Shown piece after piece: positions 26,101 to 29,100 of a stretch of DNA of 64,000 nt. Each line of letters starts with the position of its first letter. The first letter of the stretch is position 1. The stretch is from the NCBI RefSeq assembly GCF_003334785.1, contig NZ_QOWV01000002.1; one strand, 5' to 3'. The position numbers were made by a program. The stretch is from Escherichia coli. Its GTDB lineage: Bacteria; Pseudomonadota; Gammaproteobacteria; Enterobacterales; Enterobacteriaceae.

Positions 26101-29100
26101 AGTAATCGCCACCGCATCGGCGTGAATGTCATCGCGGATAATTTCGCAGACCTTGCGTAATGACTCGCTATTGACATGGCGAAACAGCGGTAGCGTTTTG
26201 TTGGCGATATCCAGCGCCAGCTTGGCCTGCCGCGCGGCGCTGGCCTCTTTTTCGCCCTCAACGCTTTGCACCAGAAGCACAATAAAGCCGATACAGACGC
26301 TACCGAGGATCATTGGAATGCCGATTTTAGAGACGATATCGATCCCCAACGCGGTAGTTGGTGCCCAGACAATTACCAGAATCATGGTCAACGTCTCACA
26401 CAACATGCCGCCGAGAATACCGACGCGCCAGCGCTGTGCTTTGGGGATTTTCAGGTTGATCCAGCCCGATATACAACCCGCCAGAATGCTGGTGATAAAG
26501 CAGGGGATCGCCGTCACGCCGCCGATATCAATTAAATACCGGTGAATACCCGCAATCACGCCGGTAATGATGCCTACCCACGGGCCAAACAGAATCCCGC
26601 CGGACATCACCGCGATAATACGTACGTTCACCAGCGAGCCTTCTACGGGAACGCCGGACCAGGTGCTGAACAGGGCGAACAGCGAGAAAATGGCGGTAAC
26701 GGCGAGCAATTCTTTTGGGGAGTGCGCCGACTTGTGCAACAGTTCGCGAAACAGGCGGATACGGATGAGAAAGAACAGGCAGATAAGCATTAACGCTGCC
26801 CGATCGAAGACCGCCAGCAGCATGTTGAATATTTCGTGCACGGGTGACTCTGAATAAGGATTAAACCTCTATGATAGGTAACCTGAAGGCTGATGACCAG
26901 CAGGCCGTTTTTGAGGAAAAACCACAATTTTAAAAGGGGATTGATAGATAAATGGTGTATTAGCAATGCATCTCTTGATAATGCACTTCTGGTTAGTAAA
27001 TTTATTGAAATTATTATGTTAATAAAATGAGTGGTAATTTTCTTGTTAGCGCAGATAAATTTCCTGTTTTTAAAGCAGAGTTCCTCATTTAACGTCATTA
27101 ATAAAATGTTCTAAAACGCTGGACAGACAGAAATTAATCAGGCTATTTTCAAAACAGCCACCATCGTGGCAGCGTCGCTCGGACGGTCCGGGCGCTAACG
27201 TTAATCTGAGGAAATTATGGCTGACACTCGCCCTGAACGTCGCTTTACGCGCATTGATCGTCTCCCGCCCTACGTTTTTAACATCACCGCTGAACTGAAA
27301 ATGGCTGCGCGTCGGCGCGGCGAAGATATTATCGATTTCAGCATGGGTAACCCGGACGGTGCGACTCCGCCGCATATCGTCGAAAAATTATGTACTGTGG
27401 CCCAGCGCCCGGACACGCATGGTTACTCCACTTCACGCGGCATTCCGCGGTTACGTCGCGCCATTTCCCGCTGGTATCAGGATCGCTACGACGTTGAAAT
27501 CGACCCGGAATCAGAAGCCATCGTCACTATTGGTTCGAAAGAGGGCCTGGCGCATCTGATGCTGGCGACGCTGGATCATGGTGACACGGTGCTGGTGCCG
27601 AATCCAAGTTACCCGATCCATATTTATGGCGCGGTGATTGCCGGGGCGCAGGTACGCTCAGTGCCGCTGGTGGAAGGTGTCGATTTCTTCAACGAACTGG
27701 AGCGAGCCATTCGTGAAAGTTATCCGAAACCGAAGATGATGATCCTCGGCTTCCCGTCAAACCCAACCGCGCAATGCGTGGAACTGGAGTTCTTCGAAAA
27801 AGTAGTGGCGCTGGCGAAACGCTACGATGTGCTGGTGGTCCATGACCTGGCCTATGCCGATATCGTCTACGATGGCTGGAAAGCGCCGTCAATTATGCAG
27901 GTACCGGGTGCACGCGATGTGGCAGTCGAGTTCTTTACGCTGTCGAAAAGCTACAACATGGCGGGCTGGCGTATCGGCTTTATGGTTGGCAACAAAACGC
28001 TGGTCAGCGCCCTGGCTCGTATTAAAAGCTATCACGATTACGGCACCTTTACGCCGTTGCAGGTGGCGGCGATTGCGGCGCTGGAGGGCGATCAACAGTG
28101 CGTGCGCGACATTGCCGAACAGTACAAACGCCGCCGTGATGTATTGGTTAAAGGGCTGCATGAAGCGGGCTGGATGGTTGAAATGCCGAAGGCTTCGATG
28201 TATGTCTGGGCGAAAATCCCGGAACCATATGCGGCCATGGGATCGCTGGAATTTGCCAAGAAGCTCCTTAACGAAGCGAAGGTTTGTGTCTCGCCGGGGA
28301 TTGGCTTTGGCGACTATGGTGATACGCATGTTCGCTTTGCACTGATTGAAAACCGCGACCGTATTCGTCAGGCCATCAGAGGGATTAAAGCGATGTTCCG
28401 TGCCGACGGTTTACTACCCGCCAGCAGCAAACATATTCACGAAAACGCGGAATAAACACCGTCGTCAGAAATGCAAACAGGAGCCTGATGGCTCCTGTTT
28501 TTCATTGCACAGTTTGCTTTTAGATCATCAGGGCAAAAGTACCGGCCCAAACGATGACCATAAAAGAAATGCCCATAAAGAAATATTTCACTTTACATCT
28601 CTCCGCGTAATTACTGTTACGCCTGAATGACTTCATTACACCTGATACAGTGAGTTGACACCGGGCAAAGCGACCTTAAAAGCCCTGTATTTTACCGTGG
28701 GCATCACCCCAGAATTCTGAGCTAAACTGCTCGAGACGGCGCTAATGTACGCCTAAAACTGAAACGAGACAAGAGGCATTTTCTTATTTACTTTTAGTAA
28801 CTTACAAGTGTCTCATATCGGCGACAGTTTAATTTCTGACGGTAATAATTAGATATTCAGCGAAGGAAAAACCTTAAGAAAAAAGCCATAAAAACCATGA
28901 GGTTATTATGGCCGATTTGAGGAGGGAAAGAGTAAGAGCAGTTTGTTAAATGTACAACGACGATTCTCCCACCGGGCGCGTTTTAAAGCGACGGTGGATC
29001 CAGAGGTACTGCTCCGGTGCGCGCATGATCTCTTTCTCGATAATCTTGTTCATATAGGCAGCGGCTTGATTTTCATCTGTCGGGTAGCCTTCCATCTCTG

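What the first reader, a model, noticed from the sequence alone, without database searches (positions are those of the whole stretch)
28520..28591. Tiny GTG-initiated membrane protein gene ypdK, missed by the six-frame track
The 23-codon hydrophobic ORF (M)KYFFMGISFMVIVWAGTFALMI sits between the alaC terminator and lpxP on the minus strand. It matches my recollection of the experimentally detected small protein YpdK and shows that sub-60-aa genes are invisible to the supplied track.
Basis: partly seen in the sequence, partly recalled or inferred. Interest (0 to 1): 0.3.

Follow-up and report, generated by a model that had tools for sequence, protein, structure and literature searches.

The report
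Known small membrane protein gene ypdK

Summary
Confirmed and ordinary. Window 28520-28591 (minus strand) reads GTG-KYFFMGISFMVIVWAGTFALMI-TAA. RefSeq annotates exactly these coordinates as ypdK (K-12 b4680; WP_010723117.1). The peptide scores 57.5 bits against NCBIfam NF033437 'YpdK' (cut-off 30).

A 23-codon ORF alone means nothing: 78 ORFs of at least 20 aa lie in 5 kb here. The evidence that it codes comes from comparison with other genomes:
- The ORF is present in 75 of 80 Enterobacterales loci anchored on alaC.
- The GTG start is invariant.
- Variation sits at third codon positions (entropy 1.13, against 0.19 at second positions).
- Among 11 loci with the identical peptide, 9 of 9 variable sites are synonymous.

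Literature held here lists ypdK among the Hemm 2008 small proteins and in a Ribo-RET data set.

Beyond the finding:
- ypdK has its own promoter, conserved across the order (TTGTCT-N17-TACATT).
- A published tiling-array transcript starts 148 nt upstream of the GTG; I predict 146.
- The roughly 146-nt leader has helices supported by covariation and matches no Rfam family.
- ypdK shares a terminator hairpin with the convergent gene alaC, its only conserved neighbour.

The peptide's function is unknown. It most likely modulates a larger membrane protein from within the membrane; this is inferred. Novelty: already known. Interest is low. The leader is the only possibly new item.

The parts
28520..28591 (-). 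ypdK coding sequence: GTG start, 23 codons, TAA stop. It encodes MKYFFMGISFMVIVWAGTFALMI.
   Evidence: Translation. RefSeq CDS at the same coordinates. NCBIfam NF033437 at 57.5 bits. Coding signature across 75 loci.
28599..28604 (-). Shine-Dalgarno GGAGAG, 7 nt upstream of the GTG. GGAG is kept in nearly all orthologous loci.
   Evidence: Sequence. Upstream 20-mers of 75 loci. Alignments A2 and A3.
28605..28622 (-). Leader helix H2: GCGTAA-CAGTAA-TTACGC, abutting the Shine-Dalgarno sequence.
   Evidence: RNAalifold. Pair counts give 90-93% of cells paired and 4-5 of 6 pairs with compensatory changes.
28652..28710 (-). Leader helix H1: a long hairpin with a conserved 11-pair basal stem (28710-28699 with 28663-28652) and a variable apical insert, which is absent in locus L002.
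   Evidence: 91-94% of cells paired and 6-8 of 11 pairs with compensatory changes, against 27-47% paired when partners are slid.
28716..28736 (-). Leader helix H0: a stem-loop near the 5' end, starting 1 nt after the predicted transcription start.
   Evidence: A hairpin forms in the first 30 nt of nearly all 74 leaders, with unrelated stem sequences; mean z is -1.3. It is less well supported in column-based counts, at 72-74% paired.
28744..28772 (-). Predicted sigma-70 promoter: -35 TTGTCT (28772-28767), 17-nt spacer, -10 TACATT (28749-28744), G+C-rich discriminator AGCGCC. The predicted start is about 28737 (K-12 about 2496775).
   Evidence: GTACATTAGC with at most 2 mismatches occurs in 73 of 75 loci at a similar distance from the GTG. 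The T at -23 was not used for anchoring and is invariant in 71 of 71 distinct sequences. Alignment A2. A published array transcript starts 148 nt upstream of the GTG, against 146 predicted (array resolution about 7 nt).
28775..28865 (-). Conserved non-coding block upstream of the promoter. It comprises an A-rich stretch just 5' of the -35 and the sequence AAACTGTCGCCG...CGACAC..GTAAGT. These are presumed regulator sites; the regulator is unidentified.
   Evidence: Alignment A1. Motif B stays with ypdK in genera where lpxP is not the neighbour.
28475..28502 (.). G+C-rich hairpin AAACAGGAGCC-TGAT-GGCTCCTGTTT followed by a T run. It is shared by the convergent genes alaC (+) and ypdK (-) and is a probable bidirectional terminator.
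   Evidence: Free energy -20.9 and -21.3 kcal/mol on the two strands, z = -4.55. Nearly every one of the other loci whose gap was folded (the 70 under 200 nt) has a single comparable G+C-rich hairpin there, with a different sequence in different clades.
28884..28913 (-). lpxP terminator hairpin followed by a T run. It separates lpxP from the ypdK transcription unit.
   Evidence: Free energy -15.7 kcal/mol, z = -5.66. Sequence.

Best explanation
This is the known gene ypdK.

Shown:
- It is a real protein-coding gene under purifying selection.
- It starts at an invariant GUG preceded by a GGAG Shine-Dalgarno sequence.
- It is conserved across Enterobacterales and lies tail-to-tail with alaC.

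Well supported:
- It is its own transcription unit of about 270 nt.
- A conserved sigma-70 promoter (TTGTCT-N17-TACATT) starts a structured leader of about 146 nt with helices H0, H1 and H2.
- The 72-nt ORF follows, then a hairpin shared with the convergent gene alaC.

Inferred:
- The product is a single-pass inner-membrane peptide. K2 would face the cytoplasm, and F4-I23 would form a 20-residue membrane helix.
- The invariant small or polar residues (G7, S9, G17, T18) and aromatic residues (Y3, W15, F19) suggest that it packs against a larger membrane protein and modulates or stabilises it, as AcrZ, MgtS, PmrR, KdpF and CydX do.
- The weak GUG start and the structured leader probably keep its synthesis low or conditional.

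My probabilities:
- Real translated ypdK gene: about 0.97.
- Promoter and leader architecture: about 0.8.
- Partner-binding modulator: about 0.45.
For: Identity:
- RefSeq CDS at the same coordinates.
- NF033437 at 57.5 bits against a cut-off of 30.
- The exact sequence is named YpdK in public collections.
- The region is present in 5423 of 5426 complete E. coli genomes.

Coding:
- 75 of 80 loci carry the ORF with a GTG start.
- Entropy by codon position is 0.58, 0.19 and 1.13, and pN/pS is about 0.28.
- 9 of 9 variable sites are synonymous among loci with the identical peptide. In-frame stops lie just upstream of the GTG in 33 loci.

Expression:
- ypdK is listed as detected by Ribo-RET.
- It is on the Hemm 2008 list.
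- A same-strand array transcript starts 148 nt upstream of the GTG and rises 2-fold after UV.

Promoter and leader.

Terminator.

Membrane character: GRAVY 1.73, with K2 the only charged residue.
Against: - No partner, phenotype or localisation could be tested here.
- The primary papers (Hemm 2008 and 2010, Fontaine 2011, Meydan 2019) are not held, so the experimental evidence is second-hand.
- Conserved residues are not confined to one helix face: the conservation moment is 0.16 against 0.11 for shuffles, and 16% of shuffles reach it.
- No solved structure contains the peptide.
- The promoter scores only 8 of 12 against consensus, so the consensus scan missed it.
- On the ypdK strand the tail after the E. 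coli terminator is only UUUG.
Confidence: 0.85

Rival explanations
1. YpdK is a type I toxin-like peptide. In this reading its job is to permeabilise or depolarise the inner membrane, and the long structured leader and weak start codon hold it in check.
For: It is tiny and very hydrophobic (GRAVY 1.73). It has a structured leader of about 146 nt and an invariant GUG start. Its transcript rises 2-fold after UV.
Against: - It is single copy at one syntenic position across a whole order, unlike the patchy, multi-copy type I loci.
- No promoter-like site was found on the opposite strand over or next to the ORF; the only + strand site is at 28821-28849.
- There is no LexA box.
- Specific small and polar residues are invariant.
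- Initiating ribosomes were seen in plain LB.
- There is no PADLOC hit.
Confidence: 0.07
2. The RNA also acts in its own right. Either it is a dual-function small RNA, or transcription reading through the shared hairpin produces antisense RNA against the 3' end of alaC, coupling the two genes.
For: - alaC is the only conserved neighbour, and 70 of 75 loci have a 36-150 nt gap holding a single hairpin.
- The transcript is short, about 270 nt, and more than half of it is a conserved structured leader.
- The E. coli U-tail on the ypdK strand is short.
Against: - There is no evidence of a base-pairing target.
- Many genera have symmetric A and T runs, which predicts efficient termination in both directions.
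- The peptide itself is under strong purifying selection, so at most this adds to the coding role.
Confidence: 0.1
3. The real product is the longer 38-aa protein (MKSFRRNSNYAERCK-VKYFF...) started at the ATG at 28636.
For: The frame is open back to that ATG in E. coli.
Against: - 33 of 76 loci have an in-frame stop 1-3 codons upstream of the GTG.
- Upstream ATGs, where present, are at inconsistent positions.
- The extension overlaps leader helix H2 and has no Shine-Dalgarno sequence.
- RefSeq and NF033437 define a 23-aa protein.
Confidence: 0.02
4. The ORF is a regulatory upstream ORF or leader peptide. In this reading the act of translation matters, and the peptide does not.
For: It is very short and preceded by a structured leader.
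Against: - Nothing lies downstream on the same strand: a terminator hairpin follows within about 20 nt, then the convergent alaC.
- The amino-acid sequence is conserved with synonymous turnover.
Confidence: 0.03

Closest known systems
YpdK of E. coli K-12 (b4680, YP_002791250.1; NCBIfam NF033437)
   Same: The peptide, GTG start, length and lpxP-ypdK-alaC context are identical. K-12 DNA is identical to the window from 28870 to 28440.
   Different: Nothing. This is the same gene in another E. coli strain.
Small single-pass membrane modulators (AcrZ, MgtS, PmrR, KdpF, CydX, MgrB); comparison from general knowledge
   Same: Each is a peptide of under 50 aa made of essentially one membrane helix, with its own ribosome-binding site. 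YpdK has invariant small residues suited to helix-helix packing.
   Different: No sequence relationship was tested or claimed. YpdK is not in an operon with a candidate partner, unlike KdpF and CydX. Its upstream neighbours differ between genera. Its partner is unknown.
Type I toxins (Ibs, Ldr, TisB, DinQ); comparison from general knowledge
   Same: All are tiny hydrophobic peptides with a long structured 5' leader. The ypdK transcript also responds modestly to UV.
   Different: ypdK has no antisense RNA signal and no LexA box. It is single copy with order-wide synteny.
Bidirectional intrinsic terminators between convergent genes; concept from general knowledge
   Same: One G+C-rich hairpin sits between the two stop codons, flanked by A and T runs in many Enterobacteriaceae.
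   Different: In Pantoea and Erwinia the hairpin has no T runs. On the ypdK strand in E. coli the tail is only UUUG.

Membership tests
YpdK (NCBIfam NF033437, equivalog) | Profile score at or above the curated cut-off of 30 bits, over the full length | tested here: met
   57.5 bits, E = 9.4e-16, residues 1-23 on profile positions 1-23 of 23.
YpdK (NCBIfam NF033437, equivalog) | Same locus as K-12 b4680: between lpxP and alaC, same strand as lpxP, GTG start, 72 nt | tested here: met
   RefSeq tables for E24377A and MG1655. DNA identical to K-12 over 28440-28870.
YpdK (NCBIfam NF033437, equivalog) | The protein is actually made in cells | not testable with these tools
   Second-hand only. It is listed as detected by Ribo-RET in PMC12350097 Supplementary Table 1 and is one of the 18 Hemm 2008 proteins according to PMC3009722. 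The primary papers are not held.
Small single-pass inner-membrane proteins | One uninterrupted apolar stretch of about 20 residues | tested here: met
   F4-I23 has a mean Kyte-Doolittle value of 2.15. K2 is the only charged residue.
Small single-pass inner-membrane proteins | Inner-membrane localisation and defined topology | not testable with these tools
   The N-terminus-in topology is inferred from the positive-inside rule only.
Type I toxin-antitoxin | A cis-encoded antisense or overlapping small RNA | tested here: inconclusive
   There is no promoter-like site on the + strand over the ORF or leader and no Rfam small RNA. A consensus scan cannot exclude one.
Type I toxin-antitoxin | Patchy, often multi-copy distribution | tested here: not met
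   Median of one place per E. coli genome. One syntenic copy in 75 of 80 loci across the order.
Leader peptide or attenuator upstream ORF | A regulated gene downstream on the same strand | tested here: not met
   A terminator hairpin follows the ORF, then the convergent alaC.
Any Rfam family (for the leader) | Covariance-model match | tested here: not met
   Only chance-level hits at E of 0.04 or worse, none on the leader helices. Only tRNAs reach gathering score in the window.

The most novel reading that the evidence does not exclude
The ypdK leader of about 146 nt may be an undescribed cis-regulatory RNA. It has three helices with compensatory changes, occurs only upstream of ypdK, and matches no Rfam family. 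Together with the invariant GUG start, it would gate synthesis of the peptide in response to a signal, whether a metabolite, temperature, a small RNA or a protein. YpdK, or its transcript, may also be functionally coupled to alaC, its only conserved neighbour.
Probability: 0.15. Interest if true: 0.5.

Novelty: already known. Interest (0 to 1): 0.12.

Why it matters
As a finding it mainly confirms a known point: annotation tracks with a 60-aa floor miss real genes.

The added value is context. ypdK is not an E. coli oddity. It is an order-wide, strongly constrained 23-24 residue peptide with its own conserved promoter, a structured leader and an invariant weak start codon, and no function has been assigned to it. 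That makes it a reasonable target for partner-finding experiments. The leader is a candidate for a new RNA motif entry.

Tried and rejected
- The search for homologous proteins refuses queries under 40 aa. Structure prediction, Pfam and the representative search need at least 30 aa, so none was possible.
- Papers not held: Hemm 2008 and 2010, Fontaine 2011, the EcoSal review, Meydan 2019 and Fesenko 2025.
- Searching for 'b4680' found nothing relevant. Supplements of three small-protein papers are not held.
- There are no PDB, PADLOC or PHROG matches and no Rfam match.
- The consensus scanner missed the promoter (8 of 12 matches) and both terminators, and reported a spurious hairpin inside the ORF.
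- LexA box as an explanation for the UV response: none with at most 1 core mismatch.
- Pairing between the CUCUC after H1 and the Shine-Dalgarno sequence, which would mask it: no covariation between the two across A3, so rejected.
- A second promoter at the conserved CTCTATAAT/CTCTATACT after H1: plausible in other genera but degenerate in E. coli (CACTGTATC). Left unresolved.
- The 23-aa ORF at 28636-28707 inside H1 is not conserved, because the region has indels that are not multiples of three.
- Identifying the regulator that binds the upstream block by recalling known consensus sites: no convincing match.
- The E24377A annotation could not be used for the whole window, because the two are not collinear outside the local region.

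Full report
**Observation.**
- The minus strand of window 28520-28591 reads GTG AAA TAT ... ATC TAA and translates to VKYFFMGISFMVIVWAGTFALMI*.
- GGAGAG lies at 28604-28599, 7 nt before the GTG.
- The alaC stop is at 28453-28455 on the + strand. lpxP occupies 28946-29866 on the minus strand.
- An ORF of this size is not significant in itself. 78 ORFs of at least 20 aa overlap 26000-31000, and this one is embedded in a 38-aa ATG-initiated ORF.

**Identity.**
- The window is 100% identical over 28300-29000 to E. coli E24377A. 5423 of 5426 complete E. coli genomes hold the region, and every listed record annotates ypdK there.
- RefSeq places CDS ypdK (WP_010723117.1, 'membrane protein YpdK') at exactly these coordinates.
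- K-12 MG1655 has b4680 ypdK at 2496921-2496992 between lpxP and alaC. K-12 DNA is identical to the window from 28870 to 28440.
- The peptide matches NCBIfam NF033437 'YpdK' end to end at 57.5 bits, against a cut-off of 30. The exact sequence is named YpdK in public collections.

**Is it really coding?** I fetched 80 loci anchored on AlaC from one genome per species.
- A YpdK-like ORF is present in 75 of them, scoring 72-115 against 13-36 for the second-best window in the same loci. The genera include Escherichia, Citrobacter, Salmonella, Enterobacter, Kluyvera, Cedecea, Buttiauxella, Pantoea, Erwinia, Mixta and Serratia.
- The start is GTG in every case, although the first codon was not used for scoring.
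- The ORF is 23 or 24 codons long.
- Entropy by codon position is 0.58, 0.19 and 1.13, and pN/pS is about 0.28.
- The GTG, Y3, M6, G7, S9, G17, T18 and F19 are invariant. K2, W15 and M22 are nearly so.
- Eleven loci from four genera encode the identical peptide with 9 variable nucleotide sites. All nine are at third positions and synonymous (P about 6e-7).
- In 33 of 76 loci an in-frame stop lies 1-3 codons upstream of the GTG, which rules out the 38-aa form.

**Expression evidence held in the library.**
- PMC3009722 states that ypdK is one of the 18 small proteins of Hemm et al. 2008.
- Its supplement S3 lists a same-strand transcript at 2494795-2494997 overlapping ypdK (2494943-2495014, old numbering), with log2 fold change +1.06 after UV. 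The array resolves about 7 nt in intergenic regions.
- PMC12350097 Supplementary Table 1 places ypdK in the 'Ribo-ret only' class. That means detection in the retapamulin ribosome-profiling data set used for comparison.
- The primary papers are not held.

**Transcription unit.**
- lpxP ends in its own hairpin and T run (28913-28884, -15.7 kcal/mol).
- Upstream of ypdK a non-coding block is strongly conserved. It stays with ypdK in genera where lpxP is not adjacent.
- The motif GTACATTAGC, with at most 2 mismatches, occurs in 73 of 75 loci, mostly about 120-165 nt from the GTG.
- A TTG lies 17 nt upstream of the TAcATT hexamer. Its first T is invariant in 71 of 71 distinct sequences, although it played no part in anchoring.
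- I read this as a sigma-70 promoter: TTGTCT at 28772-28767, a 17-nt spacer, then TACATT at 28749-28744. An A-rich stretch lies upstream and a G+C-rich discriminator downstream. The predicted start is near 28737, which gives a 146-nt leader.
- The array transcript's 5' boundary, 148 nt upstream of the GTG, agrees within the array's resolution.

**Leader structure.**
- RNAalifold on 24 Enterobacteriaceae leaders predicts two helices, H1 and H2.
- With a 5' hairpin H0 added, 88% of cells are paired, against 28-44% when partners are slid. 13 pairs show compensatory changes.
- H0 forms in nearly all 74 leaders, with unrelated stem sequences.
- A covariance model built from this alignment finds exactly one copy per Enterobacteriaceae locus, always abutting ypdK. 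It finds none elsewhere in the window and none in Erwiniaceae or Serratia.
- On the model-fitted alignment, 87.9% of cells are paired against 27-47% when slid, and 17 pairs show compensatory changes. That alignment leans towards the structure it was fitted to.
- No Rfam family matches.
- The E. coli leader on its own does not fold unusually well (z = -0.9). The support therefore comes from comparison between species, not from folding energy.

**3' end and context.**
- A perfect 11-bp hairpin (28475-28500) lies between the two stop codons. Its free energy is -20.9 and -21.3 kcal/mol on the two strands, with z = -4.55.
- Nearly every other locus whose gap was folded (the 70 with gaps under 200 nt) has one comparable G+C-rich hairpin there, with a different sequence in different clades.
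- alaC is the only conserved neighbour, with a gap of 36-150 nt in 70 of 75 loci. The two Serratia loci have about 0.7 kb inserted between the genes, Buttiauxella brennerae L042 about 1.6 kb, and Entomohabitans L043 has a 211-nt gap.
- lpxP is adjacent only in Escherichia, Citrobacter, Salmonella, Enterobacter and Lelliottia.
- Elsewhere the upstream gene is an EmrA/EmrB-like pump, a KLUC/CTX-M-family beta-lactamase, an isoaspartyl dipeptidase or another gene.

**Mechanism.**
- Shown: this is a translated, constrained gene.
- Inferred: the product is a single-pass inner-membrane peptide. GRAVY is 1.73, K2 is the only charged residue, and F4-I23 forms a 20-residue apolar stretch.
- The invariant small, polar and aromatic residues suggest specific packing against a larger membrane protein. 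By analogy with AcrZ, MgtS, PmrR, KdpF and CydX, I consider modulation or stabilisation of such a partner the most likely function (about 0.45).
- Conserved residues are not confined to one helix face. No partner can be named.
- Rivals considered: a type I toxin, a dual-function or antisense RNA acting on alaC, a regulatory upstream ORF, and the 38-aa form. All are weaker, for the reasons listed under each rival.

**Verdict.** The gene is already known, so interest in the finding as stated is low. The conserved promoter, the structured leader and the linkage to alaC are, as far as these tools show, not catalogued. They are the only parts with some novelty.

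Noticed in passing
window 28592-28865 (- strand): A conserved promoter, upstream block and structured leader of about 146 nt (helices H0, H1, H2 with compensatory changes) lie upstream of ypdK. They have no Rfam match, occur once per Enterobacteriaceae locus, and always abut ypdK.
   Followed up: yes
window 28589-28591 and orthologous loci L002-L081: The GTG start codon and the AAA second codon are invariant in all 75 orthologues, and ATG is never used. This suggests selection for a weak or regulated start.
   Followed up: partly
window 28593-28598 (- strand): In E. coli an ATG-TAA start-stop pair sits between the Shine-Dalgarno sequence and the GTG (GGAGAG-ATGTAA-A-GTG). Other Enterobacteriaceae have ATG AAA C... 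in the +1 frame, and Erwiniaceae have TTG at the same offset of 7 nt. This may reflect extended pairing with the 16S rRNA (GGAGnGAU), or a decoy start.
   Followed up: no
window 28456-28519; loci L002-L081: alaC and ypdK stay tail-to-tail across the order, with one hairpin between them whose sequence has turned over between clades: AAACAGGAGCC, GGGGCGAC or GGCGCC types. The Pantoea and Erwinia versions lack T runs.
   Followed up: partly
L019 4636-5604 (+); L020 likewise: In Kluyvera the gene diverging from ypdK is a chromosomal KLUC/CTX-M-family class A beta-lactamase (592 bits to blaKLUC, 582 to blaCTX-M). The ypdK promoter region therefore lies just upstream of the progenitor bla gene.
   Followed up: partly
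L072 about 4330-4865; L078 likewise: In Serratia about 0.7 kb is inserted between alaC and ypdK. It carries a + strand ORF for a hydrophobic protein, which I take to be cytochrome b561-like from reading the sequence.
   Followed up: no
L067 4285-4356: Erwinia endophytica keeps only the C-terminal half of the peptide (..WVGVFYLML), with a stop codon in the N-terminal half. This is a probable ypdK pseudogene or a sequencing error. ypdK is absent next to alaC in L077 (Symbiopectobacterium) and L080 (Lonsdalea).
   Followed up: no
L079: A contig labelled Pseudomonas resinovorans DSM 21078 encodes an AlaC 91% identical to the E. coli protein and has no ypdK next to it. Contamination or horizontal transfer is likely.
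   Followed up: no
window 5891-6045, 8745-8820, 55449-55523: The window has 4 tRNA genes (Lys, Val, Ala, Arg). The E24377A record has Val x3 + Lys, Ala x2 and Arg in the corresponding region, and the Arg gene is offset by about 3.3 kb. The window therefore comes from another strain, or from an assembly with collapsed tRNA repeats.
   Followed up: partly
window 28821-28849 (+ strand): The only promoter-like site reported by the scanner (GCGACA-N17-AATAAT) lies on the opposite strand inside the conserved upstream block, pointing into the 3' end of lpxP. The -10 is not kept in Enterobacter, so it is probably not functional.
   Followed up: partly
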